From Geosiphon pyriformis uo1 (taxonomy: Eukaryota > Fungi > Glomeromycota): 20,908 nucleotides of DNA. This document shows positions 1 through 20,650 of the stretch, one piece after another. Position 1 is the first letter of the stretch; every line of letters starts with the position of its first letter. Where the stretch lies: positions 5,586 through 26,493 of the forward strand of contig JAAOMT010000451.1 of NCBI GenBank assembly GCA_016748015.1. The letters are read 5' to 3'. The notes beneath the pieces are model-generated. The model was not told the origin of the DNA. It saw only the letters and a program-made list of their open reading frames with translations, and ran no database searches. The position numbers and the translations under genes were made by a program.

Positions 1-482
1 AAAGCTGCTCTAAGTTTGTAGCGAGTGTTTGTTAATCCAGCTGCTGTCTTAAATTTATTGTGAATTTGTTTTTGTATAGACTCAGAAGTGATGTTGGTTG
101 CTTCAAGTTCCAGTTTTCATTCATAAAGTGTTTTTTCAATATAAAAATATTTATATGTAAGGGTATGTTCCTTGTTTTGTTTATTGAGAAATAGTAGTAG
201 TTTTTGTTAAATTGTGGCATTTGGTGGAATGTCAATAGGGGCAAATAAAAGGTTTTCTTTTAGTCCTTGCTTCAAAAGTTCTGGTAACCTATTTTCAGAG
301 TGACCTCTTGTTTTTTTTCTATAGAGATGATAGTTCTGAGAATTATTTACTATTGGAACTGTGGTTTTTTTTTGAATGTAATTAATTTGACTTCCATTAA
401 TCGTTATGGATAAGTCAGGAAGTGTTTTCAAAGCTAACATTAATTTTTGGAATATTTGTTGAATATTTCGGAGAATAATCAT
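1..482 (-). pseudogene. Element B ORF3: unknown protein, truncated by the window edge
   Basis: MIILRNIQQIFQKLMLALKTLPDL... aligns in frame with A ORF3 across two stops (YFYIEKTLY, KLEL, IQKQ, FKT, YKLRAA). Confidence 0.8.
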
Positions 483-2138: not shown

Positions 2139-2354
2139 TGTTACCAGATGAAATTAGAAATATTATTTAACATAAAATTATCCTTATAATTCCTAGCATT
2201 AATTAGCATATATTATTGTTTCAAAGTATCACTTATTATATTAGCAAAATATCTGAAATTATTATTTAATTAATAACCCAATTTGTACATAACACAAATG
2301 TAACCTAACTGTAATGATCAATCATATAATATCCCGAACTATGTAATATTCAAA

Positions 2355-2469
2355 AGTTTGCCAAAATTTGTAAAAATTTGCTGAAATAATTGAATAGTTC
2401 ACCGAAATATCTAATAGTTTGCAGAAATAACTTGTAGTTCGCCAAAATGTATCTTTAGTTCAGCGAAAT
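2355..2469 (+). promoter_or_regulatory. Array of six degenerate AGTTCGCCGAAAT motifs in the LTR (putative U3 enhancer); also at 11271-11385, with five copies in B at 18317-18411
   Basis: Motif starts at 2355, 2375, 2396, 2416, 2436 and 2457 (20-21-bp spacing). The repeat is observed; regulatory function is inferred. Confidence 0.6.
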
Positions 2470-2844
2470 TGTAGAAATAGCAAAAGTTCAAGTTCATAGA
2501 ATAGTGTTATGACAAGTTGTATAAAAAAAGAGCTTCTTTCTTCAAAAAAATGTATTTTATCTTTGATTTAGTAATTAGAATTATTCCTATACACACAAAA
2601 ACAAAATAAATATCAAATAATTTGAAAAATCAATTTTTTAATTATTATACTTGCAATAACACCTAAAAATCCCGACTAACGTTTTAAAATTGATTAGCTA
2701 CCAATTTTAATAAACTGTTAGTGACTCCAGGTCTGGATAGAAAACGTTTTCCTTGATAAAATTTTATTTCTTTTACATTTTTTTTATTTTCTTTTATTTT
2801 CTTATTATAATTATTAAGGTAACCTACAGACGAGATTCCTGTAG

Positions 2845-2945
2845 AAGAGTTGACTTTCACAGCAAAGTAACTGCACATTTTTAGTGAGCTTCTAAACAAG
2901 CAATTCTTGGGAAAGAGTTGACGTTTACTACAACGTAACTACACA
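2845..2945 (+). repeat. Two 33-bp direct repeats 68 bp apart in the LTR, each folding into a bulged stem-loop
   Basis: AAGAGTTGACTTTCACAGCAAAGTAACTGCACA and AAGAGTTGACGTTTACTACAACGTAACTACACA; present in all three LTRs. Confidence 0.8.
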
Positions 2946-3122
2946 AAGCAACTGGCACAGAATTGGCTATTTCACTTATAAGCCTAGTAGTTTAAATTAT
3001 AGGAGATAATTTGAAGATAAATTCAGTTATTGGAAATTCAATTACTTCCAGAAAACGTGAATTCACAGCAAATCAACAATTATAACGTTCAAAAAAAGAG
3101 ACCAAAAACCTTTGGTAACATT

Positions 3123-3140
3123 TGGTGCTCTCCTACAGAA
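3123..3140 (+). promoter_or_regulatory. Primer-binding site of element A (TGGTGCTCTCCTACAGAA)
   Basis: Begins with TGG (complement of tRNA CCA) 2 nt after the 5' LTR; near-identical 18-mer in element B. Confidence 0.85.
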
Positions 3141-3903
3141 ACAACACAGCAAAAACAACTTCAAAGTGGTGACCACACCAGATGCAACAACTCTAGAGTA
3201 TTACTAGTCAATTTATACCCACTGCAAACAAAGATTTAACATCCCAGACAGAATTGAAGTTATTAAGAAATCAGTATACCAATACATTGAAAACTGCATT
3301 AACAATTATCTTTTTGGAAATTACAACATCTCAGAAGTTAGAAGCAACCTTTACAATAATTTAGTGCACTATTCACAGTTGGGAACTGAAGACCTTAACA
3401 GTAAAACACTTGCTACCTATTTTCAAGAACTTAATTTTAACATCATTGAGTATTGTGAAAAAAAATACCTAGTACAGTTTCAATACTTTATTGACTTCGA
3501 ATCAGAGATAGAAACAAGCAACAAAGACAGACAAAAATTGAAACAATATTCAAGAACTACACCAAACACTCCAATACTACAAAAGACAACTGCCAAACAC
3601 TTGCAAACATCTGAACAAGAAACCAATGTCAAATTACCACTTTCTATTACACTATTTCCAATTTCACTTGCTCAACCACAAATACCAAGCTCACCACTTA
3701 TTCGGTTTTCAAGAATAGAAGATTTTCAGTCACCTAAAAGCCCTATTCAACAACAAGAATCTCTTTTAACTAGCACTAATCGTCTTGACTTTTTAACAGA
3801 AAATCAAAGTGAACATTCTGAGACAGCCAGTCATGACAAAAACAATTCTGAATTATCTGAAAAAGAAGAAGAATCAATCCACAATGAAAGTGAAGAAGAC
3901 GAA

Positions 3904-4650
3904 ATGACAGCTTATATTGCAAAAATTCCCGAATTTAATGGAGAAGATATTGAAACCAGTCCCCAAGAATGGCTTGACCAAGTTACTAAAGCGGAAGATG
4001 CAAATGGATGGAATGCTGCCAGAATGTTAAGAACAATTCCTTACTTTCTCAAAGGAACAGCAGGCAAATGGTTTGAAAACTTGACCACCCTTTTTAATGA
4101 CTGGACAGCTTTCAAAACTGTCTTCTTAGAACAGTTTACCAACAACAATACTTCTATCACTTTCTGGAATCGCTTCCGAAATATCAAACAAGAGCCATCC
4201 AAATCTGTCATGATTTATATTGGGAAATTCAACAAACTTCTCAGACAAATTCGCCAACTTGAAACTAATGATTATTATTTCAATGCTCAAATCTTGGACC
4301 AATTTATCACTGGTTTAAAGAATAAACTGATTAAAAAGATTCACCCACATGTCCCAGAAGATTTAAACTCTGCCATTCAGCATGCAAAAAAATATGAAAT
4401 GGCCATGGAAGAAGCCAATCATACAAAACTTGTGAACTTAACTATTAGAAAAACCAGCTCAGCAGCTGAGGAAAAAATCGACCAACTCACAAAAAAAGTT
4501 GAAAACTATTTCACCAACCAACAACAACAGCAACCCCAAAGATATCAACCACCCCAAAGACGAAATCAAAACAACTTCGCATTATCCTCTAATAACCAGC
4601 CTCAGAATTGCCATTACTGTGGAATTCCTGGCCACTGGAAAAGAGATTGC
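3904..4650 (+). pseudogene. gag: Gag capsid region and CCHC zinc knuckle of element A
   Basis: Retrotransposon Gag-like motifs (IPEFNGED, PQEWLD, YFLKGTAGKWF, IKQEPSKSV, QFITGL) and CHYCGIPGHWKRDC = CX2CX4HX4C at 4609-4650. Confidence 0.9.
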
Positions 4651-5199
4651 AGAAAGCTACAAAGAGATTAACAAAACAGAAGCAATCAATATTACTCTTT
4701 ACTATAGCAGTCTTATTATCAAACATTACCACCAGCTTACTATCTATCAAGACCCCAATACCAAAATAACTATTATTAGTCTGCCCCACAGCCAATCCAA
4801 CAGCAATACCAACAACCACCCACACAATATTATCAAGTATCTGCTCAAAGATTGATTCTGCAAAATCAATTCACATCACAAAACCAATACCAAATAAACA
4901 ACAATAGAATCAATTCAAACAACCAATTGGTTCCCCAAAATTCCACTTAACCAAGACCCACTCACTATTACACTCAACCCAGTTATTTAACAATACCAGA
5001 AGAACAGAATTTTTACAATACTGCACTTTTAGAAGGTAGAGCTGCAGCACAATAACAAAACCTTTTCTATACCTCTACCACAATTCTACCAGCCAGAATT
5101 GCTGAAAATGCCAACCTTTCAGATATATTCTCTTTTGAATTTGAAACAAATGAATCACCATTTTTACTTAGCAATGTCACTGCAAATGAACAGAAAGCA

Positions 5200-5560
5200 A
5201 TCACAGCTATGTATACCAAAGCTGAAATTGAAGGAAAGCCAATTCGCTTAATCCTAAACAATGGATTTGCCGAAAGTATCATCACCTATCAGTTGATGCA
5301 ACAACTGAAAAGAAATATCGACTGACCTGCACAAACAGTCATTGTTACAACTGATAGCATAAAGAAAACCCCAGTAGGCGAAATTGATAATTTTCTCTTC
5401 ACAATTGACAGAATCACTATTCCAGTTAAGGTATTGGTTATAGATGCTCCCCAATACCAAGCTCTTGTTGGAAATAATTGGCTCCAAAAAGCCAATGCCA
5501 ACTTAAATTGGGAAACCCAAGAATTAACAATTTTTTATCAAAGACAACATGTCTGAGTAC
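5200..5560 (+). pseudogene. Retropepsin-like aspartic protease of element A (degenerate)
   Basis: EIEGKPIRLILNNGFAESII (decayed LDSG motif; B has LNSGLAGSII) and YQALVGNNWL (decayed LG-DWL); same frame as Gag. Confidence 0.85.
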
Positions 5561-5789
5561 CTACCACTTGTGGTACATTCAACAAATGCTCTAAAAAAGC
5601 CCCGGCTTTTGAATTCGAACCAGAAAAAAAAAACCAATAGTCAAAACATTCATGGCCCTTGGATCAACGTCCAATTGGGCTGACAAAACTGAACAAGAAC
5701 ATTTTACACCATACTCTAAACCCAAAACCCCTGGATGGAATATCCCCTACTCAAAGCCTGAATTAAGAAAATGATGCCCCTACATTCCC

Positions 5790-6400
5790 CTTAAATGTAA
5801 GGACTGCCACAAGAAACTATCATCAATGGGAGCTTGTATTTCACCTGAGGAAGAATATGAAAGTCACACCTGTTATTATTGCAAGACCTGTCATCAAAAA
5901 TAATGGGGCCACTTGATTAAAAAAAGTGGAAAATGGGATGAAACACCCTGTCTTACTTGTGGAAAGCAGCTTCTTGATAAATGTGACTGGATTAATGTTG
6001 TATTTAGAGGAGGAGTATGTGATCAAACTTGTCAATATGCTCTTTTTATAGCAGAAAAAGTAAAACATGGAACACCTTTTGATGCCGCATATAACAGTGC
6101 CCTCAACAAACTTTATCACTACCTCCATGACGCCAAAATGATCTACAAACTTGCCATGGTTTTAATTAACAGAGGAACCAAGGAAGATGTTTTTCAAATG
6201 AAGAAAGCTGAATATATCGAATATACATTGGAATTAGCTGGATTTGATTATAAAGATGAAGTTGAAGAATATTACCAAATTGCAAACCATTCATACCCAA
6301 CCCAAGAAGCTCAAATTCAATAATTAGAGCAAATGAATATTCAATTATGTGAAAAATGTATTATGTCTTGTAATGATAAATGGTGTCCAGAATGCTATGC
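5790..6400 (+). pseudogene. Uncharacterised cysteine-rich domain with several CxxC pairs between protease and dUTPase (element A)
   Basis: CKDC...CYYCKTC, CLTC...CDQTC, CEKC-IMS-C-NDKW-CPEC; colinear and conserved in B at ~14380-14990 (-). Confidence 0.75.
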
Positions 6401-6519
6401 TCTTAGTGTTCCTCTACCAAGTGAAAATGATGAGTTTGAAATTGAATTTGAAAAGCCCGAAATAACAGAGGAAATTGAAACAACCCCAATCTATCTCCTT
6501 AAAAATCACTCTGCCCTAC

Positions 6520-6947
6520 AACTCAAGTATTTTAACAACAATGGCCAAGGAATAAAACTGGAGAAAGCCCATGAAATAGATGCTGGATATGATCTGAGAT
6601 ATCTAGGCAAAGATACCCTTATCCTTCAGCCAAACTCCCTTACCAAAATCAATCTAAAAATTGCCCTTGAAATCCCACCAGGAACAGTGGTTCAAATTGC
6701 TTCTCAATCATTCTTGGCAAGCAAAGGAATCAATATTAGAGGAGGAATTATTGATGCTGGATATACAGGAAACATCACAATTATGTTACAAAACAAAACT
6801 GATAAACCATTCAGAATTGAACATGCTGAAAAAATTGCTCAAGCTATCTATTTACCTTTAATCAACATTTTGGGCTTACAGTTAGTCAATCAAAGAGAAC
6901 AATTGGAAAAAAGTGAAAGAGGAACACAAGGTTTTGGTTCAACTGGA
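6520..6947 (+). pseudogene. dut: dUTPase domain of element A
   Basis: All five trimeric-dUTPase motifs recognisable: DAGYDL, ASQSFLASKGI (RSS-like; B has ASRLSLAS), GGIIDAGYTGNI, EKIAQAI, SERGTQGFGSTG. Confidence 0.93.
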
Positions 6948-7559
6948 TGATTCACAGTTCCAGTAAACATAGCTCTCAATGAACAGAAAGAATCCCACCA
7001 GATTCTTCGACTTCCACAACCAAACACTATTTCACCTTTTGGAGAACACCCCAAAATTTATACTTGTGAGAAACCAACAATAAGCCAACAAATTTTTGAA
7101 TCCAATGAACAAATTTGTTTGGAACATAGTATTTTAATCCCAAACATTTATATTCCAAAAGGAACAAAAAAAATCCGAGTTACTTTCTATAATCCCAACA
7201 ATTACCCTATTGTTTTGTTAAATAACTTAGAAATTGGAGTTATTCACAGTAACATCTTTTAACAAAAATTACCTCAGACAGTTCCCAATTTCTCAGAAAT
7301 TATTGGACATTCACTACCAAAAATCAACCCAAATCTCAGCTCCAAAAACTATCATGTTGTTACTGAAAAACTAGCTTGAATCAACATGAAACAGCTCAAA
7401 CCACAACAGCAGAACCAGTTCAAAGAATTAATAGCAGAATATGCTGATATTTTCATTAAGAACAACAATAATCTAAGAAGAACTAATTTGGTTCAACATC
7501 AAATTTATACAGAAGATGCCAAACCAAGATGACAACAAGCATATTGAGTCGCCCCAGAA

Positions 7560-8787
7560 AGCCACCAATTCATTCACAAAGAAGTACAACGGATGCTTAA
7601 CAATGAGCTTATCTAACCATCAATGAGCCCATGGGCTTCATCTGTGGTTTTAGTTAAAAAGAAAAATGAAAAAATACAATTTTGTGTTGATTATTGACAA
7701 CTTAACAGTGTTATCATTGAAGATGCCTACTCTCTTCTCCGAATCGATGACATGTTAGATGCCCTTGGAAAATCCAAATACTTTTCAATATTAGATTTGG
7801 AAAGTGGATACTGGCAAATCACCATGGATCCCAAAGATCACCCCAAAACAGCTTTCATCACCCAAGGAAGAAATTACGAGTTCAACATAATGCCTTTTGG
7901 ACTATGCAATGCACTTGCAACATTTCAAAAACTCATGGATATTGTATACAAAGGCCTCCTTTGGAAATCAGTAATTGTCTATCTAGATGATACAGATGTT
8001 TATTCACCATCTTTTGAGTTATATTTAATTCACTTGTGAGAAGTTTTTCAATGATTACAAAAAACAGGATTGAAACTGAACATTGAAAAATGCTACTTTG
8101 GAAAAACAAGTCTGGCCTTTTTTGGTCATATTGTTAGCAAAAATGGGATTAAACCTAATTCTGCAAAAATTAGCACAGTCAAAAACTTCAAGACTTTCTG
8201 AAACACCATAGAACTGAAAGGATTTATCGGATTAGCATTCTATTATCAAAAATTCATTAAAGAATTTTCAGATCACAAAACCTCTCAACCAACTGATCAC
8301 CAAAAATGTCGAATATAAATGGACTGTTGAACATCAAAAAGCTTTTGAAATTCTTAAGGAAAAACTTACAACAGCTCCAATTCTTGCCTAACCTGATTTT
8401 AGTAACTGATTTTGACTAGCTACGGATGCTTTTTATGCTGCCTTTGGTGCCATCTTATTACAATTAGATGACAACGAAAATGAGTGAGTAATCGCTTATG
8501 CCAGCAGAACACTAAAACCAGTAGAAAAAAATTACCCAGCAACAGAACTAGAAACAGCAGCAGTAATTTGGGCCCTACATCATTTCAATCTCTATCTTAG
8601 ACCTAAAAAATTCGATATTATTACTGATAATATTAGACTCAAATGGTTACAAAACCAAAACACTCAACTCAATACAAAACAAATCTGATGGATAGAATTC
8701 TTAGCAAACTATCAATATATAGTGCACCACAAATCAAGAAAACTCCACACCAATGTTGACTGTCTTTCAAGAATAAGGCAAGATTAG
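7560..8787 (+). pseudogene. pol: Reverse transcriptase and RNase H of element A
   Basis: Ty3-type RT motifs (CVDY-QLN, LDLESGYWQI, KTAF, MPFGL, VYLDD, LNIEKC, FFGHIVS) followed by RNase H. Confidence 0.95.
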
Positions 8788-8835
8788 AAAAACACAAGCA
8801 ACACTCAATTCAACCAACAAAGACAGCCACAAACA

Positions 8836-10219
8836 ATGAACCCTAAAAACTACAACAATCTCAAACAATATTTGGAGACATTAACAATCCTAACAAATTG
8901 GTCTTCAGATGAAAAACACTGATTACAACAAAAAGCCAAACAATATTTTCTACACAACAACACTATTTATTATTGAAACTTCAGAAATCCAGACAAATCA
9001 TTCAGATTAATACAGGAAAATGAGAAAGAAACTATCTTATACAACATGCACTCAAACCCTTCATCAACACATTTAGGAAAAAATAGCACTACTCAGAGAA
9101 CACTAGAATATTACTTTTGGCCTCGAATGAGAAAAAACATTCATGAATACATCAAATTTTGTGATAGTTGTTAAAGAAGAGAAGGAACTCGCCCTATAAA
9201 ACCTTTAAACCCAATCAAAGTTGAACAGTCTTTTGATTAAGTTGGTATCGATTTAGTCAGATCACTACCTATCACCAACCAAGAAAACCAATATATTGCA
9301 GTAGCTGTAGATTATCTTACCAAATGGCCTGAAACCAGAGCCATTCAACGAGTAGATGCAAAATCAGTAGCAAACTTCATTTATGAAGACATTATTTGTA
9401 GACATAGATGTCCAATTGAACTTTTATCCAACCAAGAAACATATTTTGTGAACAACTTGATACAAAAAATTTGTGAACAGTTTAATGTCAAAAGACTATT
9501 ATCTTCGCCCTACCATCCACAAACAAATGGACTTGTAGAATGTTTCAACAGAACATTGTGTGAATCATTAGCCAAAGTTTCAACTGATTTTGAGCAAGAA
9601 TGGGACATTTTTATTCCATCAGTGTTATTAGCATACAGAATGCTAAAACAAGATACCACAAAACACACACCATTTGATTTAACTTACAGAAGGACAGCAA
9701 CATTACCAATTAATTTGACAATAAAAACATACCCAGTACAACCAATTAATGAAGACAATTTCCAAGAAACACTTCAACAAAGAGCCTACATTCTGTTTAG
9801 TACATTGGAAGGAAAATAACGAATAGCAGCCACCTATATTGAACACTTCCAAACTCAACAAAAAAATGGCATAACAACAAATTGCCTCCAATTACCAATA
9901 AGTTTAAAATTGGAAACAAAGTTCTCTTACACAGAACTAAAGCTGAAAAACAATGCAGTGAAAAATTTAAAATAAATGGGATGGGCCATTCTTTATCCAT
10001 GAAGTTCTAGGCAATGAATCATACAAGCTAAGACTTGATGACAAAATCCTAGCAAAAGTTGCACATAGAGATCATTTGAAACACTATAATTCCAGAAACA
10101 ATCCTGAATCATTAATTCCACAAATTGGTACACATTTCCCTTTAATCAATTCTGAAGATATTCCCTAAAACTTAAAACCAATAGTTGTTATTGAACAACC
10201 TCTTAACTTGAACACTTAA
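8836..10219 (+). pseudogene. int: Element A ORF2: integrase (HHCC, DDE, GPY/F), no chromodomain
   Basis: NMH...THLG and CDSC (9160-9171); VGIDLV, DYLTKWPE, decayed SDQG, SSPYHPQTNGLVE; WDGPFFIHEVLGN; ends PIVVIEQPLNLNT-TAA; starts at ACAATG after the ORF1 stop. Confidence 0.93.
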
Positions 10220-10366
10220 TTTAAATTTACTATAGTTATTCCCTTATAAATTAAAAATAATTTCACAAAAATAAAACAAGACAAAACACACTGAAAAACA
10301 AAAATAACATAAAAATCCATATACCAAAAATAATTTCAGTCTATTTTTTTTATTCAAAATTTTATA

Positions 10367-11086
10367 ATGACTATCCCTCAAAATATTCAACAATTATCTG
10401 GAAAATTAATGCTAGCTTTAAAAACAATACCCGAATTATTTATTACTATTACTGGAAAACATATTAATTATACCCAAACAAAAATAGTTACAAATTTAGT
10501 TCCAAATTCACGAAAATGTCACCCCTATAAAAAGAACACAAAAAGTTATTCTGGAATTCATCTACCAGAACTTTTAAAGCTTGTTTTAAGAGAAAACTTA
10601 TTGCTCACTTTTATTAGTATTTTACTGAATGTTACTATTCAACAAAAACTTCAACTGTGTCTTAATGAGGAAAACAGCAAATACCTCTCAATATATAGAT
10701 ATTTCTACATTGGAAAAACACTTTACAAATGAAAACTGGAGCTTACAACAGCAAATCTCATAAAAGAAGCTATTCAAAAACAACTCTACAATGAATTCAA
10801 GACAACAGTTGGACCTACAAACAACCACTATAAACTAAAAGCTGCTTTTAGACTTTATGACCTATTTCACACCTGTGAAAACGTCCTACAAAATCCAGTT
10901 TTACAACTCTTGAAAATTCAATACATTGGAAAGCTCACAGAACTGAAATTTCAACAATTTTCAGACCAAATTTCTTTAATTATTTTGGACTACTATCTGG
11001 AAATTACAAACAGTACTTGGACTTCAACAGAACTCAGTCTTGAGGAGGAGGTTATGTTACCAAATGAAATTAGAAATATTATTTAG
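10367..11086 (+). pseudogene. Element A ORF3: unknown protein (~239 codons, one internal TGA at 10730-10732)
   Basis: ATG 10367; frame stays open after the TGA (KLELTTANLIKEAIQKQLYNEFKTTVG...YKLKAAFRLYDLF...) through the PPT to TAG 11084-11086 inside the LTR; homologous ORF in B at 482 to <1. Confidence 0.8.
11042..11051 (+). promoter_or_regulatory. Polypurine tract of element A (GAGGAGGAGG)
   Basis: Purine run 3 nt upstream of the 3' LTR. Confidence 0.85.
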
Positions 11087-12036
11087 CATAAAATTACTCT
11101 TATAATTCCTAGTATTAATTAGCATATATTATCATTTCAAAGTATCACTTATTATATTAGCAAAATATCCGAAATTATTATTTAATTGATAACTTAATTT
11201 GTACATAACACAAATGTAATCTAACTGCAACAATCAATCATGTAATACCCCGAACTATGTAACATTCAAAAGTTCGCGGAAATTTGTAGAAATTTGCCAA
11301 AATAATTGAATAGTTCACTGAAATATCTAATAGTTCGCAGAAATAACTTGTAGTTTGCCAAAATGTATCTTTAGTTCAGCAAAATTGTAGAAATAGCAAA
11401 AGTTCAAGTTTATAGAATAGTGTTATGACAAGTTGTATAAAAGAAAAGCTTCTCTCTTCAAGAAAATGTATCTTACTTTTGATTTAGTAATTAGAATCAT
11501 TCCTATATACACAAAAACAAAATAAATATTAAATAATTTGAAAAATCAAATTCTTAATTATTATACTTGCAATAACACCTAAAAATCCTGACTAACATTT
11601 TAAAATTGATTAGCTACCAATTTCAGTAAACTGTTAGTGACTCTAGGCCTGAATAGAAAACGTTTTCCTTAATAAAATTCTATTTCTTTTACATTTCTTT
11701 TATTTTCTTTTATTTTCTTATTATAATTATTAGGGTAACCTACAGACAAGATTCCTGTAGAAGAGTTGACTTTCACAGCAAAGTAATTACACATTTTTAG
11801 TGAGCTTCCAGATGAACAATTCTTGGGAAAGAGTTGACATTTACTACAACGTAACTATACAAAGCAACTGGCACAGAATTGGCCATTCTACTTATAAGCC
11901 TAGCAGTTCAAATTATAGGAGATAATTTGAAGATAAATTCAGTTATTGGAGGTTCAATTACTTCCAGAAAACATGAATTCACAGCAAATCAACAATTACA
12001 ACGTTCAAAAAAAGAGACCAAAAACCTCTGGTAACA
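11055..12036 (+). repeat. 3' LTR of element A (982 bp)
   Basis: Starts TGTTACCAAATG, ends CTCTGGTAACA; direct repeat of 2139-3120; preceded by a purine tract. Confidence 0.97.
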
Positions 12037-15000
12037 CTGGTTTGTGGTGTACAATGTATTTATAGTCTGCTAGAAAATTATTTTATCAAGACTGTTTAGC
12101 ACTTTGTTCAGTTTTCTTTTTATTGAGCCATTTGAGACTAATATTGTCAGTTATAATGTCAAATTCTTTTCCATTTCTCAGATATTGTTGAAAATGTTTG
12201 AAAGCTCATATGACTGCAGCTGTTTTTAATTCAGTTGAGCCATATTTGAGTTCTGTTGGCTTGAGTGTTCTGCTGGCATAAGCAATAACTTGTTCTTGGC
12301 CATTTTCATCTAATTGTGATAAGATGGCACCAAATGCTGTATGTGAAGCATTAGTGATTAGTTGAAACCATTTGTTAAAGTCTGGATAAGTAAGAACTGG
12401 GGCTGTTGTCAATTTTGTTTTGAGAGTGTCAAATGCTTTCTGTTGTTCTTCAGTCTATTTGTATGGCACATTTTTGTTGGTAAGGTAATTGAGTGGTTTG
12501 ACAATTTCTGAAAATTCTTTTATGAATTTTTGATAATAAGAGGCTAACTTTACAAATCCTCTTAGTTCTGTGGTATTTTTGGGAGTTTGAAAGTTTTTGA
12601 CAGCACTTATTGTTTCAGGGTTTGGTTTGACTCTATCTTTGCTAACAATGTGTCCAAAAAAGATTAGGCTTGTTTTTCCAAAGTGACATTTTTCAATGTT
12701 CAATTTTAATTCTGCTTTCTGTAATCGTTAAAAAACTTCTCACAGATGGATAAGATGGGCTTCAAAGTTTGATGAGTATACATCAGTGTCATCAAGATAG
12801 ACAACTACTAACTGCCATAAGAGTCCTTCATATACAACATCCATGAGTTGTTGAAATGTTGCTGGTGCATTGCAGAGTCCAAAAAGCATTACATTGAACT
12901 CATAGTTTCCTCCTTGAGCGGTAAATGCTGTTTTGGGTCGATCTTTTGGGTCCATTTTGACTTGCCAGTATCTACTTTCCAAGTCTAAAGTTGAGAAGAA
13001 CTTGGCTTTTCCTAGAGCATCTAGCATGTTATCAATTCTTGGAAGAGGGTAGGCATCTCCAATTGTAACACTATTCAGTTGTCTATAATTAACACAAAAT
13101 CTGATTTTTCCGTTTTTCTTTTTAACTAAAACTACTGGTGAGGCCCAAGAACTTCTTGATGGTTGAATCAATCCGTTATTGAGCATTCTTTGGACCTCTT
13201 TTATAATAAATTAGTGGCTGGCAGATGGCACTCAATAAGCTTGTTGTTTTTTTGGTGGAGCATCTTCTGTGTGAATCTAATATTGAACAATATCAGTTTT
13301 TTTCAGGTCATTGTTGTCTTTTGCAAAGATATCTGCAAATTCAGCTATTAACTGTTTCAACTGTCTTTGTTGTTGGGATTCTAAAAGACCCATGTTGATT
13401 TGAGAGAGTTTTTTTTCCAAAAGATGGTAGTTTTCAGTAGTAGAAATGATGTTTGAATTTGAAAGTAGGGTATGTCTTATAATTTCGATAAAATTAGAGA
13501 CAATTTGAGGGTTTTCATCTTGGAAGATATTATTATGTATGATTCCAATTTCTAATTTATTTAATAGAACAATAGGATAATTGTTGGGGTTGTAGAATAT
13601 AACTTGAAATTTTTTTATTTTTTTAGGAATATAAACGTTTGGGATTGAGATTTCATGTTTCAAACAGATTTGTTCATTGGATTTAAAGATTTATTGGGTA
13701 GTGGTGGGTTTTGAGCAAGTGTAAATTTTGTGATGTTTACCAAAAGGTGAAATGGTAATTGGTTGAGAAAGTTGAAGAATCTGGTAGAATTCATTTTGTG
13801 CATTAAGAGCTATGTTTACTGGTACTGTAAATCATCCAGTTAAACCAAAACCTTAAGTTTCTCTTTCACTTTTTCCCAATTGTTCTCTGTTCTTTACTGA
13901 TTGTAAACCCGAAATATTGATTAAAGATAGATAAATTGCTTGGGCAATTTTCTCAGCATGTTCAATCCTGAATGGTTTGTCTGTTTTATTTTGTAATATG
14001 ATGGTAATGTCTCCAGTATATCTTGCATCTATGACTTCTCCTCTAATGTTGATTTCTTTGCTTGCCAACGATAATCTAGATGCAATTTGAACCATTGCTC
14101 CAGATGGAATTTCAAGAACAATTTTAAAATTGATCTTTGTTAAGGACTTTGGTTGAAGAACCAAAATATCTTTTTCTGAATATCTTAAATCATATCCAGC
14201 ATCAATTTTGTGTGCTTTTTCTGGTCTAATTTCTTGGCCATGGTTGTCAAAATATTTAAGTTGTAAAGATGATTGCTTTTTAAGAAGATAGACAAGAGTG
14301 GTTGGTAGTTTTTTTACCAGTTCAGATACTCCAAATTTGATTTCATTTTCATTATTTTTCTCTGGCAGGGGAATGCTAAGAGCATAACATTCTAAACACC
14401 ATTGGTCATCACAAGGCATAACACATTCTTCACACAATTGAATGTTCATTTGCTCTAATTGTTGAATTTGAGCTTCTTTGGTCGAATATGTGTGGCTTGC
14501 AATTTGGTGGTAGGTTTTTACTTCATCTTCATAATCAAATCCAGCTAATTCCATGGTGTACTCAATATATTCAGCTTCTTTCATTTGGCAAACATCTTTT
14601 TGGGTGGCTCTATTGATCAATGTCATTGCTAAGTCAAAAATCATTTCAGCATTATGTAAGTAGTAGTAAAGTTTATTGAGAGCACTGTTGTATATTGCAT
14701 CAAATGGTGTTCCTCTTCTGACTTTTTCCGAAATTAATAGAGCATATTGGCAGGTTTGGTCACATACTCCTCCTTTCATTGCAACATCAATTCAGTTACA
14801 TTTTTCTAGTAGCATATTTCCACATGTAAGGCAAAGTGTGTTGTTTTATTTTCCACTCTTTTTGGGATATCCAAATCGTTCTTTATGGCATGCTTTGCAA
14901 AAGTAGCAGATACAAGTTTTATATTCCTCTTCTGGAAAAATACATGCTTTTATTGATAAAAGTTTTTTGTTGCAATCTTTGTATTTGAGTGGAATGTAGA

Positions 15001-17650
15001 GTGGTTGTTTCTGTGGTTCTGGTGTGGAATATCTGACTTTCTTCCATTTTTTTGATTTTTCAAAAATCTTCTGTTCTGTTTCTTCAGCCCAATTGGATGT
15101 TGATCCAAGAGCCATGTAAGTTTCAGTGAGTGGCATTTCTTTTTCCTCTTCAAATTCAAATACTGGAGCTTTTTCTGTTCATTTGTTGAAAGTTTTACAA
15201 GTAGCAAGTACTATAATGTATTGTTCTTGGTATGAGATTTTTAGTTTCTGAGTTTCCCAATCTAAGTTTGCATTGGCCTTAAGAAGCCAATCATTTCTGA
15301 CTAGAACTTAGTATTGGGGTACATCCATGACTAAAACTTTGACTGAGATGGTAATTCCATCAATGGTAAATAGAAAATTGTTAATTTTTCCTACTAGTGT
15401 CTTTTTCATATCATCTGCTGTAATAATTACAGTTTGGACTGGTCTGTCAACAGTTTTTTGAAATTGTGGTATTAACTGGTAAATAATAATACTTCCTGCT
15501 AATCCACTGTTTAAAATTAATTAGATAGATTTTTCTTCTACTGTAGCTTCAATGTACATAGCAGTGATGGCTTTCTGTTCATTAGCTGCTGCATTACTAA
15601 CCAAGAATGATAATTCATTTGCTTCAAATTCGAATGGGAATATATCTGAGAGATTGGCATTTTGGGCAATTTGAACTGGTGGAATGGTATTGTTGGAAGA
15701 GTTTGATCTTGGTGCTGCAACTTCACTTTCAGAAAGTGCAGTTTATTAAAAATTCGATCCTTCTGGCATTGTAAGATAACTGGGTTAAGTGTGATAGTGG
15801 TTGAATCTTTGCTGACCAGAATTTCAGAAAACCAACTGGTTATTTGAGTTGATTCTGTTGTTGTTATTCTGAAATTGATTTTGGGATGTAAATTGGTTAT
15901 GTTGAACCAATTTTCTGACTGGTATTTAATATTGTTGAGTGGGTGTGTCTGATTTTGCTGAATTGGCAAAGGTTGTTGATATTGTTGTTGAATTGGTTAT
16001 GGGGCTGGTTGATAATAACTGTTTTGATTTTGTGGTTTTGGTGAATAATAAGTTAATGGTAGAGGTTGGTAATAAGATTGTTGTGGTGAAGAGTAACATT
16101 GATTACTTCTGTTTTGTTGGTCTCTTTGCAATTTCCTGCAATTTTGTTTCCAGTGTCCTGGAATTTCACAATAATGACAATTTTGAGATTGGTTGTTAGA
16201 TGGTGATCCAAAATTGTTTTGGTTTTGTTATTGTGGTTGTTGATATCTTTGTGATTGTTGCTGTTGTTGTTGGTTTGTAAAGTAGCTTTCAACTTTCTTT
16301 GCAAGTTGATCTATCTTTTCTTCAGCTGCTAAGCTGGTTTTTCCAATAGCTAGATTTACAAGTTTGGTGTGGTTTGCTTCTTCTATTGCTATTTTGTAGT
16401 TTTTTGCATGTTTTATGGCAGTTGTTAAGTCTTCTGGGGCATGTGGACGAACTTTCTTAATGAGTTTGTCTTTTAATCCAGCTATGAATTGATCCAAAAT
16501 CTGGACATCAGAATAGTAATCATTGGTTTCCAATTGTTGAATTTGTCGAAAAAGTTTATTGAATCTTCCAAGATAGGTTATGACAGTTTTAGATGTTTCT
16601 TGTTTGATATTGCAAAAGTGATTGTGAAGAGTAATAGAGGTGTTGTTGTCAGTGAATTGTTGTAAGAAAACATCTTTGAATGCTTGTCAGTTCTCAAATA
16701 GTTCTTCCAAGTTTTTAAACCATTCTCTTACAGTTCCTTGGAGAAAGTATGAGATTGTTTTGAGCATTCTTGCTGCATTCCAACCATTTGCATCTCCTGC
16801 TTTTTGAACTTTGTCAAGTCATTCTTGAGAACTGGTATCATTATCTTTACCAATGAATTCTGAGATGTTTGTAATGTAAGCAGTTGCCATTTTTTCTTTG
16901 TTTTCTATGGTTTCTTCTTGTTCTGATTCAGTTTCTTTACTTTCCAAGTTTTCTGAAAGATTACTTTCGATTTTCTGTAAGTACTCAATAATATTGGTAC
17001 TTGTTGATATTGGTTCCTGCTGTTGAATAAGATTTCTAATTGACTGAAAATCTTCTGGTCTGGAGAAATAGCTAAGTAGTGAACTTGGTGTTTGTAATTG
17101 AACAAGTGAAATTAGAAATAGTGTAATAGAAAGTGGTAATTTGACACTGGTTTCTTGTTCAGGTGTTTGCAAGTGTTTGGCAGTTGTTTTTGTAGTATTG
17201 AAGTGTTTGGAGTGGTTCTTGAATATTGCTTCAATTTCTGTTTGTCTTTGTTGCTTGTTTTTGTTTTTGATTCAAAGTCAAGAGAGTATTGAGACTGTAC
17301 TGGGTATGTTTCTTTACAATACTTGATAATATTAAAATTAAAGTTCTTGGAAGTAGGTGGCAAGTGTATCACTGTTAAGATCTTCAGTTCCCAATTGTGA
17401 ATAGTGTACTAAATTATTGCAAAGGTTGCTTCTCACTTCTGAAATGTTGTAATTTCTAAGAAGATAATTGTTGATATGATTTTCAATATATTGGTATACT
17501 GATTTTTTGACAACATTAATTCCGTCTGAGATGTTGAATCTTTGCTTGCAATGGATGTAAATTGACTGATAATACTCTAGGGTTGCTGTGTCTGGTGTGG
17601 TCACCACTTTGAATTTGTTGTTGCTATGTTATTTCCGTAAGAGAGCACCA
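12037..17650 (-). pseudogene. gag-pol: Element B ORF1: Gag-PR-Cys-rich-dUTPase-RT-RNase H, degenerate
   Basis: Track ORFs give Gag (ATG 16890; knuckle CHYCEIPGHWKQNC at 16138-16179), protease (~15200-15560), CxxC domain, dUTPase (DAGYDL, VIDARYTGDI, KIAQAI; ~13835-14260), RT (YLDD in ORF 12740-13186) and RNase H (12206-12412). Confidence 0.92.
17633..17650 (-). promoter_or_regulatory. Primer-binding site of element B (TGGTGCTCTCTTACGGAA)
   Basis: 2 nt downstream of the LTR, starts TGG, matches A's PBS at 16 of 18 positions. Confidence 0.85.
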
Positions 17651-17652
17651 AA

Positions 17653-18618
17653 TGTTACTGGAGGTTTTTGGTCTCTTTTCTTGAATGTTGTAAGTGTCAA
17701 TTTGCCATAAATTCATGTTTCCAGAAAGTAGTTGGACCTCCAGTAACTGAATTTATCTTCAAATTATCTTCTATAATTTGAACTGCTGGGCTTATAAGTG
17801 GAATGGCCAATTCTGTGCCAGTTGCTTTGTGTAGTTACATTGTAGTAAATGTCAACTCTTTTCCAGAAATTGCTCATTTGAAAGCTCACTAAAAATGTGT
17901 AGTTACTTTGCTGTAAAAGTCAACTCTTCTACAAGAATCTTGTCTGTAGGCTACCTTAATGATTATGATAAGAAAAGAAAAATAAAAAAATGTAAAAGAA
18001 ATAAGATTTTATCAAGGAAAACATTTTCTATCCAGACCTGAAGTCACTAACAGATTATTGAAATTGGTAGTTAATCAATTTCAAAATGTTAGTTGTGTTG
18101 AGGGAATTTCAAGTGTAATAATTTTAAGGATTTGTTTTTCGAATATTTAATTTTTATTTGAATATATAAAAGGTAATTTGTTTCAATTAAGATTCTAAAG
18201 TGAAATACTATGTTAAGATACTATAAGAAAATACATTTTTTTGAAGAGAAAAGCTTTTTTTTTATACAACTTGTTGTAGTACTAGTCTTTAAACTTGCAC
18301 TTTTCTCTTTGCTATAATTTGGGTGAACTAAAGATATATTTTGGCAAATTTACAAGTTATTTCACTAAACTATTGATTATTTCGACAAATTTTCATTAAT
18401 TTCGGCAAATTTTGACTATGTTAAAAGGTTCAGGATATTGTGTAATTCGATTATCTTAATTTCTAAAGTACAAATCGGATTGTTGATTGAGTAATGATAT
18501 TTGATAATTTGATTAAATAATAAGTAATAATCGAATTAATAATAATGTATGCTAATTAATAATAGGAATTATAAGAGTAATTTCATGTTAATTAATAGCT
18601 AAAATTCTACTGGTAACA
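17653..18618 (-). repeat. 5' LTR of element B (966 bp)
   Basis: Minus strand starts TGTTACCAG and ends CCAGTAACA; homologous to A's LTRs, most strongly in the PBS-proximal ~430 bp. Confidence 0.93.
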
Positions 18619-20650
18619 ATGGCCTTAAGACTTTCAGATAAGTGCAAGCTGAGAATTCTTTAGCAAATTTGGTGATTTTTGGCAATTTAAAAAGCATTCT
18701 TGGCAAGTTGTTCAAGCATTGAGCCATGGATTTGCAGACTATTAGCTGGATGTCTTAACAATCTCTCAATTTTCTGATTTCATTGTCAATCAACTTCTTG
18801 AATTGCTTCCTAGCTAGTGTTATCAACACTTTGGCTTTGTGCAAATTTTTTTTGAGTGGTTTTCTGTCTAATGTTTTTTACACTGGTGGTAATGTTGCTG
18901 TTGTTGATGTTTTAGGCTTGGATTAATATCTGAGTGTGATGGACTCACTCAAGAGATTTGGTTTGGTCTTCACTAACCAGCTTTTGAATCATCATGGCAA
19001 GTGTTTTACTTGAAAAAGCTTTCACAGATAGAAGAGACTAAATCCCAGAGGGTTCATTCCTAATTGGTACAGTTTGCTTGTCAATTTCATTGAAAATGGT
19101 GGCTTGGTCTATGATTGTGCTTTTGCTTTCAGTCCTGTTCTCAGTTACTGTTTGGACAAAGTTAATTCTGTTGGTAGATGTTTTTTAGAGTGCAGATTAG
19201 GCCACTTTGTTGTTTATACTAATGATTTAATCAAGGATTTTAATACTGTAAATGCTTATGGTAGTGCTACTGCATACTTTTCAAACATAGACAAAGGTGT
19301 TAGAGTTGAAGTGTGTGGTCTGCTTTCTTTAATTTTAATGGAATTGCAGGCTATTACTTTTACTTTGGATTGTGTGCTAGTGTTCAGCTTGGTAATTTTG
19401 TATATGGATAGTCAAGCTTTTTTGAATTATGCTTTGTTTGGGAGTAATACAGATTTTGATTTTCATAAAAAATATTGGTTGGAGAAAGAGTGTATCTATT
19501 AAATAATTATATCTAAGAATTTGTTAATTAGTTAGAACAAGATCAAGAGTTATTCTGGAGTTGTTGACAATAAGCATGCTGATTTTCTGGCTGATACTAC
19601 CACCAAATCCAATTTTGCACTGCTTGTAGATATGTCATGCTATTTTTTGACCATTAAAAACATACTTGTTTCCAAAAATGTTTGTTATTTTGTTAGGTGT
19701 CTTTTTGATGCTATAAGTTTTGTTGGTTGAAAGTCCAAATGCACTGGGTGTTTTGTGAATAGTAGTCTGTATGATAAGTTTGATATGGATTAAATTTTTA
19801 GTGTATGACATCTCGATAGTAAGTGTCATTCCAAATTTACTAGCTTTGCTTCTGTGGCACTTAGATTTTACTTTATAAAAGTCTTGCATTGCCAATTATC
19901 TGTTGCCAAAAAAAAGAGACTGTATAATTCAAAATATCCCAGTGTTCTGTATATTTACTGTGGTTTGGTCAAAAACTCTAACCACACATTTTTCTATATT
20001 TATGATGCACATGTTAGAAGAGATCTCATTAATAAGACTATTGATTATTAGAATGATCTGCTAGATGCCTGTGCTACTAAGAATATAGTAATAGGTTTTT
20101 TGTATAAGACTGAGTTTTCTAATTGGTTGTACATATCTTTAGCCAAAGATTTTGTAATGAGTGAGTAAGTAACTGACACTGCTCATTTGTTGGGTGGTAG
20201 TTCCAATGGTGCATCTCTGATTATTAATTTGATTTAGAGTTTTACTAAGGGTCACAAATCCACTATGTGGCTGCTAACTGCCAAGTTGAAAACACATTAT
20301 AAGAAACTGGGTCTCCTACCACATGATAAATCTGCAGTGTCAATAGTGTCTGGTCTAGTTTTTTTGTGGTCTCTTAGTAAAATTTTTGATTTTGATATTA
20401 GGTTTGATATCTATGTTTGTTTTGGTTTGCATTCCCATCTATTTAGTATAAGTTTTAATATCTTGTGTAACTTCTCTGTTGTAATTAATTTTGGTGTTTA
20501 GTGTTGCCTTAATTGGTTCAAGTGGCTAGTTACATGTAAAAAATGCATGAGCCATACTTATTATAAAAACTTGTATGATCCTATAGCTTTAAGTAATAGT
20601 TGGGCTATACTCATTAAATACTTAATAAAAAAAAAATAAAAAAATAAAAT
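18619..20650 (+). mobile_element. 3' part of a heavily degraded non-LTR (LINE-like) retrotransposon: ORF2 C-terminal region, 3' UTR and poly(A) tail
   Basis: Decayed RNase H (VYTND from YTDG; MELQAI; LYMDSQA; KIKSYSGVVDNKHADFLA from KVKGHSG..GNE.AD) at ~19209-19595; decayed CCHC finger (YIYCGLVKNSNHTFFY) at ~19944-19997; ORF ends at 20501; AATAAA plus A-run at ~20624-20650. Confidence 0.8.

What the first reader, a model, noticed from the sequence alone, without database searches (positions are those of the whole stretch)
10367..11086. Conserved unknown ORF3 in the env position, overlapping the PPT and 3' LTR
Seen: a ~239-codon sense ORF with its own ATG after an AT-rich spacer, conserved in frame in B (KLMLALKT.P.L.ITI.G..INY; LPELLK..L.ENLL; YFYI.KTLY; IQKQ..N.FKT; YKL.AA). 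It has no obvious signal peptide or transmembrane stretch, so it is not env-like. It reads through the PPT (EEE) and stops 32 nt inside the LTR, a position like lentiviral nef. Low-confidence inference: the C-terminal half (YFYIGK...LYNEF...AFRLYDLF...IGKLT..KF) recalls an uncharacterised helical domain I remember as expanded in arbuscular-mycorrhizal fungal proteomes. It could be a transactivator, anti-silencing or nucleic-acid-binding accessory protein.
Basis: partly seen in the sequence, partly recalled or inferred. Interest (0 to 1): 0.78.

Follow-up and report, generated by a model that had tools for sequence, protein, structure and literature searches.

The report
Novel accessory gene of fungal retrotransposons
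A jumping-gene family abundant in the fungus Geosiphon carries an extra conserved gene after its integrase, here as a broken copy; the protein matches no known family and is likely a nuclear regulator of the element, which would be a retrovirus-style accessory gene in a fungus.

Summary
The frame 10367-11086 is real but broken here: codon 122 is TGA, a CpG-decay stop. It is the third gene of a dUTPase-bearing Ty3/Gypsy element (2139-12036), most likely from Geosiphon pyriformis, whose annotation holds at least 76 full-length copies. The gene is under purifying selection (transversion dN/dS about 0.3 between two copies, p=0.0004). Homologues only 27-29% identical occur in metagenomes; one sits in the same place (integrase, spacer, ORF3, PPT, LTR). 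It is not env-like. AlphaFold gives a confident all-helical core with no significant match in Pfam, PDB or viral folds; a weak DUF1016_N/ParB-HTH lead failed a profile test. All five subgroups keep a basic-X2-5-PY motif in a low-confidence linker, resembling a transportin nuclear signal. The read-through into the LTR is likely incidental: the conserved tail is PPT DNA, and a third Geosiphon subgroup appears to stop at the PPT in another frame, so the nef analogy is positional only. Best reading: a nuclear trans-acting regulator made from an internal transcript, in the manner of foamy-virus Tas (about 40%). Function and expression are untested. New protein family within a known kind of gene.

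The parts
10367..11086 (+). ORF3, 239 codons, broken by TGA at codon 122 in this copy
   Evidence: relatives
10730..10732 (+). In-frame TGA at a CpG-decay hotspot (R/Q/W in relatives)
10379..10477 (+). N-terminal helix plus beta-hairpin module (residues 5-37), conserved pattern in all five subgroups, low-confidence model
10511..10528 (+). PY-NLS-like motif (residues 49-54, R-X3-PY) in a basic linker with pLDDT under 50
10559..10999 (+). All-helical core domain (residues 65-211), no significant sequence or fold match
10220..10366 (+). A+T-rich spacer between integrase and ORF3; TATAAAT at 10245-10251 (candidate internal promoter, not significant alone)
11042..11051 (+). Polypurine tract, read as EEE by ORF3
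11055..12036 (+). 3' LTR of element A (TG...CA, 982 nt); ORF3 stops 32 nt inside
2139..3120 (+). 5' LTR of element A, 910 of 982 positions identical to the 3' LTR; 70 of 72 differences are transitions
3208..4671 (+). gag (Retrotrans_gag, zf-CCHC); the frame runs on into the protease region past decay-type stops
6324..6950 (+). pol stretch holding the dUTPase domain
7380..8787 (+). Reverse transcriptase and RNase H, decayed, ending at a TAG (8785-8787) whose position is shared with copy B and L001
8836..10219 (+). Integrase with its own ATG, decayed (stops and frameshifts)
1..482 (-). ORF3 of copy B (subgroup II), first 160 codons, stops at codons 92 and 122, cut by the window edge
12037..18618 (-). 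5' part of copy B (LTR to RNase H); element A is inserted antisense into it, likely 4-bp target duplication TTGG/CTGG; B continues at 2138->1

Best explanation
This is a broken copy of a conserved, selected third gene of a fungal Ty3/Gypsy retrotransposon lineage, whose intact product is predicted to be a soluble helical protein that is likely imported into the nucleus and likely regulates the element's own expression in trans. SHOWN: position after integrase, many full-length copies, purifying selection, five divergent subgroups, no membrane segment in intact copies, a conserved basic-X2-5-PY motif. PREDICTED: a compact all-helical core behind a flexible basic linker. INFERRED: the gene cannot be part of the Gag-Pol polyprotein (stops and a spacer precede it, and integrase is itself a separate frame), so it needs its own message, most likely from a promoter in the A+T-rich spacer; the PY motif would bind transportin/Kap104; the helix-turn-helix-like part (residues 133-167, conserved G-x-x-N turn followed by a helix with K/R) would contact element DNA or RNA and raise transcription from the LTR or export of the full-length RNA, as foamy-virus Tas or Cer1 CERV do. 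The run through the PPT into the LTR is inferred to be incidental. Step odds: real protein gene 0.93; nuclear 0.55; regulator acting on the element's own nucleic acid 0.4.
For: Selection: A versus B, 155 codons, transversions only: 16 of 67.5 synonymous sites versus 32 of 397.5 non-synonymous, ratio 0.34 (0.27 corrected), Fisher p=0.0004; gag capsid 0.14, RT 0.14, integrase 0.20, RNase H 0.29; the two shifted frames give 1.9-2.0; stricter count 7 of 25 fourfold sites versus 12 of 158 second positions, p=0.006. Copies: 204 of 483 candidates at E<=0.001, 120 of 120 listed named G. pyriformis; 76 of 185 close relatives among the 231 stored proteins are full length and nearly ungapped. Depth: P0147, P0148, P0149 at 27-29%; five subgroups on the tree. 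Synteny: L001 has RT-RNase H, integrase, spacer, intact ORF3, PPT and TGTTAC LTR start, integrase 51-57% identical to the window's versus 32% for ORF3; L002 has integrase tail upstream; 19 of 231 stored gene models join ORF3 to an integrase tail, 18 with the tail first, at least 6 from subgroup III. Fold: domain model pLDDT 92.9, pTM 0.88. Nuclear signal: R/K/H-X2-5-PY in 5 of 5 subgroup representatives, aligned in one column, segment net charge +3 to +5, 2-4% per sequence in shuffles; matches the published rules of disorder, basic character and motif (PMC2408616, passages). No conserved acidic or His catalytic set: invariant columns are I, I, L, N, F, L. TATAAAW 111-126 nt before the first ATG in 3 of 4 spacers. 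Precedent: Tas from an internal promoter (PMC12789967, passages); CERV (PMC10309623, abstract).
Against: No nucleic-acid-binding family was matched: DUF1016_N 13-14 bits against a cut-off of 32.8 and profile-profile score 13.0 versus 12.0+/-2.1 in shuffles, 13 of 60 as high; ParB-type HTH structures only at background Z 3.2-4.5. The whole protein is not consistently basic (pI 5.2-9.7 in 9 intact relatives). The PY motif was noticed after the fact, the subgroups share ancestry, and 49 of 149 close relatives lack PY (mostly LY or SY, as decay would give). The TATA box is absent from copy B and has a 6-12% chance per spacer. dN/dS rests on one pair of decayed copies and the first 160 codons. Nothing here tests transcription, localisation or activity.
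Confidence: 0.4

Rival explanations
1. Counter-silencing protein: a nuclear factor that binds host chromatin, methylation or small-RNA machinery rather than the element's own nucleic acid.
For: The element is heavily hit by C-to-T/G-to-A decay (70 of 72 LTR differences are transitions; CpG observed/expected 0.20-0.26); AM fungi methylate TEs and make TE small RNAs (10.1101/2021.03.30.436303, passages; shown for Rhizophagus); ORF3 evolves faster than pol, as conflict genes do; LTR elements cover 41.2% of G. pyriformis (PMC11952901, passages); overall charge is not strongly basic.
Against: No likeness to a known suppressor was found; faster evolution fits any accessory gene; no sign of positive selection was tested.
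Confidence: 0.25
2. Integration or particle cofactor: ORF3 helps import or target the separately made integrase or the pre-integration complex.
For: Integrase is a separate frame in 3 of 3 elements examined, so it needs another way into particles or nuclei; ORF3 always follows it; the PY motif could serve import of a complex.
Against: An extra ORF lies between integrase and ORF3 in L002, so the two are not tightly coupled; no chromatin-reader fold was matched.
Confidence: 0.15
3. Captured fungal gene: ORF3 derives from a helical domain common in Mucoromycota proteomes and is kept for a role unrelated to regulating the element.
For: Top two Atlas clusters for the domain are Mucoromycota hypothetical proteins (0.93, 0.92); bdelloid elements show repeated capture of unrelated ORF3s (PMC5408684, passages).
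Against: Shared features 161 and 153 of 256 are under the 170 guide, and unrelated clusters score as high; phmmer and three word-seeded searches found no non-element relative. Origin by capture does not exclude a regulatory role.
Confidence: 0.12
4. No protein function: the frame survives only as a by-product of copying a successful element and of cis-acting DNA.
For: Both copies in the window are broken; the C-terminal motif is explained by PPT DNA.
Against: Synonymous excess in this frame only; ATG, length and fold kept at 27-29% identity.
Confidence: 0.04
5. Env remnant or cell-to-cell movement protein.
For: It occupies the env position.
Against: No hydrophobic 19-residue stretch above 1.33 in 9 of 9 intact relatives, 1-3 cysteines; all-helical soluble model; no viral fold match.
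Confidence: 0.04

Closest known systems
Additional ORF3s of dUTPase-bearing Ty3/Gypsy elements of bdelloid rotifers (Juno, Vesta, TelKA; PMC5408684, passages)
   Same: Third ORF after pol in an element with dUTPase; non-env types exist; said to be separate transcription units.
   Different: Those ORF3s are env-like, transmembrane, coiled-coil, GDSL esterase or DEDDy exonuclease; this one matches none, and here integrase is a separate frame.
Foamy-virus tas/bel-2 region (PMC12789967 and PMC7828637, passages)
   Same: Regulatory gene between the structural genes and the 3' LTR, made from an internal promoter, nuclear transactivator: the working model for ORF3.
   Different: No sequence or fold similarity found; Tas follows env in a vertebrate retrovirus; promoter and transactivation are untested here.
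Retand TRP28 additional ORFs of plant Gypsy elements (PMC11963269, abstract)
   Same: [quoted passage not shown]
   Different: TRP28 ORFs are antisense in a 2.9-6.6 kb region; ORF3 is sense, in a 0.8 kb region, and gave no Pfam match.
CERV of C. elegans Cer1 (PMC10309623, abstract)
   Same: Novel nuclear accessory protein of an LTR retrotransposon, needed for genomic RNA export.
   Different: Made from a spliced mRNA; no similarity tested or found; no conserved splice acceptor before ORF3.
Lentiviral nef (PMC12789967, passages)
   Same: Coding sequence runs into U3 of the 3' LTR.
   Different: Only 32 nt overlap, apparently dispensable (subgroup III ends at the PPT); no N-terminal glycine for myristoylation (recalled feature of Nef); no similarity.
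DUF1016_N (PF17761), DUF6192 and ParB-type HTH domains
   Same: Weak recurring look-alikes: Y-x-IG-x-x-L helix followed by a helix-turn-helix-like pair (VIA rows 1vz0, 6s6h, 1r71).
   Different: All below significance; profile-profile test no better than shuffles.

Membership tests
Ty3/Gypsy LTR retrotransposon (host element) | Two direct LTRs with TG...CA ends | tested here: met
   2139-3120 and 11055-12036, 92.7% identical
Ty3/Gypsy LTR retrotransposon (host element) | gag, then RT, RNase H, integrase in that order | tested here: met
   Pfam Retrotrans_gag, zf-CCHC, RVT_1, rve; RNase H by tblastn to L001
Ty3/Gypsy LTR retrotransposon (host element) | PPT before the 3' LTR and short target-site duplication | tested here: met
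   GAGGAGGAGG at 11042-11051; TTGG/CTGG flanks, one transition apart
Ty3/Gypsy LTR retrotransposon (host element) | Integrase is part of the Pol polyprotein | tested here: not met
   Stop after RNase H at the same codon in A, B and L001; ATG 48, 58 (out of frame) and 24 nt later
Accessory ORF3 of LTR retrotransposons | Separate ORF between pol and the 3' LTR | tested here: met
   A and L001 fully; B and L002 on the 5' side
Accessory ORF3 of LTR retrotransposons | Maintained by selection on the protein | tested here: met
Accessory ORF3 of LTR retrotransposons | Expressed from its own (spliced or internal) message | not testable with these tools
   No RNA run was available to lay; TATA-like site in 3 of 4 spacers is suggestive only
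Env glycoprotein | Transmembrane anchor or signal-type hydrophobic stretch | tested here: not met
   Best 19-residue hydropathy 0.44-1.33 in 9 of 9 intact relatives; no dedicated signal-peptide predictor was run
Env glycoprotein | Similarity to a viral fusion protein | tested here: inconclusive
   No match at E<=0.001 in BFVD or PDB
DUF1016_N (PF17761) | Score above the curated cut-off (32.8 bits) | tested here: not met
   12.9 and 14.0 bits, 2 of 24 alignment members
DUF1016_N (PF17761) | Profile-profile similarity above shuffled controls | tested here: not met
   Probability 0.2%, score 13.0; 13 of 60 block shuffles as high; template profile of only 11 sequences; probability 0.7%
ParB-type HTH DNA-binding domain | Structural match standing above background | tested here: inconclusive
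   1vz0 Z 4.5, rmsd 4.3, 88 aligned; 6s6h Z 3.3, rmsd 3.1, 59 aligned; 1r71 Z 3.2; no chain of 48,161 reached Z 5
PY-NLS (transportin/Kap104 cargo) | R/H/K-X2-5-PY in a disordered, basic segment of about 30 residues | tested here: met
   5 of 5 subgroup representatives; pLDDT under 50 at 39-65; net +3 to +5 (rules from PMC2408616)
PY-NLS (transportin/Kap104 cargo) | Binds the importin and drives nuclear import | not testable with these tools
   Needs a binding or localisation assay
   Atlas 0.93/0.92 without alignment; none in HMMER searches; the clusters' sequences could not be fetched
Tas-like transactivator | Activates LTR and internal promoters by binding DNA | not testable with these tools
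   Reporter and binding assays needed

The most novel reading that the evidence does not exclude
An old lineage of fungal LTR retrotransposons has a complex-retrovirus-like, three-gene layout (Gag-Pol without integrase, a stand-alone integrase, and ORF3), and ORF3 is a dedicated nuclear transactivator or counter-silencer with a fold not yet solved, made from an internal promoter, that helped these elements fill much of the Geosiphon genome despite heavy cytosine decay.
Probability: 0.3. Interest if true: 0.8.

Novelty: new variant of a known kind. Interest (0 to 1): 0.5.

Why it matters
Accessory regulators are well studied in retroviruses but only a few are characterised in LTR retrotransposons, and seven searches of the held library (listings only) showed none for Glomeromycotina. 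LTR elements cover 41.2% of the G. pyriformis genome (PMC11952901), so a regulator or counter-silencer in a dominant family would bear on how these genomes grew. It also reassigns at least 200 'hypothetical proteins' of the G. pyriformis annotation to a transposon gene family, and gives a small, confidently modelled domain without a solved relative plus a concrete, cheap test (PY-NLS, LTR reporter).

Tried and rejected
Family libraries: Pfam gave nothing for the window protein at E<=0.1 and only weak scatter for 24 alignment members; PHROGs best E 0.0012-0.002 to unnamed families; NCBIfam FtsQ at E 0.00046 in 12 of 24 members, which are near-copies of one another, not followed up and not supported by the all-helical model; PDB sequences 1 hit at E 0.14; tblastn of phages no match. 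Folds: Foldseek PDB and BFVD no match at E<=0.001; VIA best Z 4.8, 4.6, 4.3; this shows neither a new fold nor absence of a known one, and no AlphaFold-DB library was available. DUF1016_N lead failed against shuffles. Homodimer prediction returned no verdict, score 0.01, alignment not used. No RNA holder listed. No relatives of ORF3 or of the L001 integrase in IMG/VR or GTDB scans; these collections are not expected to hold fungal DNA. The metagenome scan stopped at 31 of 64 parts and gave 2 loci of 593 pattern matches. No genome was held for the window, so genome-wide dN/dS and synteny could not be run; one search gave only short contig pieces. Programmed read-through of the TGA at codon 122, suggested by the same stop in A and B, was rejected. 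A conserved splice acceptor before the ATG was rejected: YAG at -30 in A and -15 in B, none within 260 nt in L001, none in L002. The bacterial promoter scan and tRNA scan are uninformative here. Searching the ORF3 profile in two prokaryotic records was empty and shows nothing.

Full report
SETTING. The window is a nest of two related Ty3/Gypsy LTR retrotransposons. Element A runs 2139-12036 between two 982-nt LTRs that differ at 72 positions, 70 of them transitions. It is inserted antisense into copy B, whose halves lie at 18618->12037 and 2138->1, with a likely 4-bp duplication. Pfam finds gag, zinc knuckle, dUTPase, RT and integrase in A. No genome is held for the window; the host is inferred to be Geosiphon pyriformis (Glomeromycotina) because 120 of 120 listed relatives of ORF3, up to 84% identical, carry that name. 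LTR sequences cover 41.2% of that genome (PMC11952901, passages).

THE OBSERVATION. ORF3 starts at ATG 10367, after a 147-nt spacer of 84% A+T, and ends at TAG 11086, 32 nt inside the 3' LTR, reading the PPT as EEE. The shared stop is not recoding. Annotated relatives have R (74), Q (71) or W (28) there out of 176 aligned, and genomic contigs of run X1 vary at all three bases in the way a CG-containing codon decays. Both window copies are therefore dead, like their pol genes.

IS IT A GENE? Yes. Counting only transversions between A and B, to set aside cytosine decay, ORF3 has 16 changes in 67.5 synonymous sites and 32 in 397.5 non-synonymous sites (ratio 0.34, p=0.0004); capsid and RT give 0.14, integrase 0.20, RNase H 0.29, and the two wrong frames 1.9-2.0. 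A stricter count gives p=0.006. This is one pair and 160 codons. The family is large: 204 of 483 candidates, and 76 of 185 close relatives among my 231 stored proteins are full length. It is also old: phmmer over 1.84 billion representatives gave 32 hits, three of them at 27-29% identity, and the tree shows five subgroups, three in Geosiphon and two from unnamed metagenome records. Two further profile searches added only P0181 outside Geosiphon; they are word-seeded and miss distant relatives.

POSITION. ORF3 lies downstream of integrase in 4 of 4 loci with DNA: A, B, L001 and L002. L001 shows the whole layout with an intact gene: RT-RNase H, integrase, A+T-rich spacer, ORF3, PPT, TGTTAC. Its integrase is 51-57% identical to the window's, its ORF3 32% over 135 residues. 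L002 has one more ORF between integrase and ORF3. For subgroup III the evidence is indirect: gene models fuse it to an integrase tail.

THE LTR OVERLAP. The tail motif shared by four subgroups is best explained by DNA: A and L001 match at 31 of 37 bases across the PPT and LTR start but 6 of 20 just upstream. Read in the -1 frame, the L001 DNA there spells the same ending as subgroup III proteins but for the last residue, followed by a stop at the PPT. So subgroup III appears to end at the PPT on the same signal, and running into the LTR is not required. I could not see subgroup III DNA, so this step is inferred. The nef comparison is positional only.

THE PROTEIN. AlphaFold gives a low-confidence N-terminal helix and hairpin, a linker with pLDDT under 50, and a helical core; the core alone, from L001 with 24 sequences, reaches pLDDT 92.9 and pTM 0.88. 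Intact relatives have no membrane-length hydrophobic stretch and 1-3 cysteines, so it is not env-like. Invariant columns are structural residues, with no catalytic-looking set. No library gave a significant match. A lead to DUF1016_N and ParB-type helix-turn-helix domains recurred weakly but scored no better than shuffles in a profile-profile test, so I do not file it there. The one positive functional clue is a basic-X2-5-PY motif aligned across all five subgroups in the basic, low-confidence linker. It meets the published PY-NLS rules, and a yeast Hrp1 signal ends in a very similar YHPY (PMC2408616, passages). It was noticed after the fact, and 49 of 149 close relatives have lost it.

EXPRESSION. 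RNase H ends in a stop at the same codon in A, B and L001, and integrase begins at its own ATG 24-58 nt later, so the element has at least three separately started frames. ORF3 follows a further stop and spacer, so it needs reinitiation or its own message. No splice acceptor is conserved; TATAAAW lies 111-126 nt before the first ATG in A, L001 and L002 but not B, with a 6-12% chance each. An internal promoter is the most economical reading, unproven.

MECHANISM. I commit, at about 0.4, to a nuclear protein that acts in trans on the element's own DNA or RNA, as Tas does from the foamy-virus internal promoter (PMC12789967, passages) or CERV does for Cer1 RNA export (PMC10309623, abstract). Counter-silencing through a host partner (0.25) and an integrase or particle cofactor (0.15) are the main rivals; a captured gene with another role (0.12), no function (0.04) and env (0.04) follow.

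WHAT IS KNOWN. Extra ORFs after pol are a known kind: env-like, GDSL and DEDDy ORF3s in dUTPase-bearing bdelloid elements (PMC5408684, passages) and antisense TRP28 ORFs in plant Retand elements (PMC11963269, abstract). This protein belongs to none of them by the tests run. Seven searches of the held library (listings and abstracts' openings only) showed no description of it; the Geosiphon genome paper and published repeat libraries were not seen, and no supplements were read. Earlier scan notes describe similar layouts in other genomes, but a look-up by sequence found no look-alike; they are leads, not support.

VERDICT. A real, selected, previously unnamed accessory gene family of fungal Gypsy elements, seen here as a dead copy. 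New variant of a known kind; interest 0.5, rising to 0.8 if a regulatory or counter-silencing activity is shown.

Noticed in passing
window 8785-8838; window 2087-2024 (minus); L001 772-801: RNase H ends in a stop at the same codon in three elements and integrase has its own ATG 48, 58 (out of frame) and 24 nt later, so integrase is a separate gene. Earlier scan notes describe a start codon overlapping the stop in other genomes; here the two do not overlap.
   Followed up: partly
L002 425-811: An extra 128-codon ORF lies between the integrase tail and the ORF3 homologue, right after the A+T-rich spacer; no Pfam match, no match in the window. This element may carry two accessory genes.
   Followed up: partly
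window 5904-6420: A cysteine-rich stretch of unknown kind between protease and dUTPase is under purifying selection (transversion ratio 0.24, p=1e-5 for 5904-6320) and has no Pfam match.
   Followed up: partly
window 2800-3900: The gag frame seems to extend about 100 codons back into the 5' LTR once decay-type stops are ignored, with an ATG in 2 of 3 LTR copies; the N-terminal part of gag (3208-3900) has few synonymous changes, hinting at an overlapping cis-acting signal.
   Followed up: partly
window 2824-2945 and 11740-11861: A 54-nt unit repeated at 68-nt spacing in each LTR, also in copy B; a candidate binding site for a transactivator test.
   Followed up: no
window 3123-3133: Candidate primer-binding site starting TGG two bases after the 5' LTR, conserved in copy B; the priming tRNA was not identified.
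   Followed up: no
window 2139-3120 versus 11055-12036: Only 20 of the 70 transitions between the LTRs are in a CpG context, so decay is not confined to CpG; it may reflect non-CG methylation or a RIP-like process.
   Followed up: partly
window 18620-20600: Decayed coding-like sequence on the minus strand beyond copy B's LTR (capsid-, zinc-knuckle- and RT-like peptides by eye), probably another retroelement; not examined.
   Followed up: no
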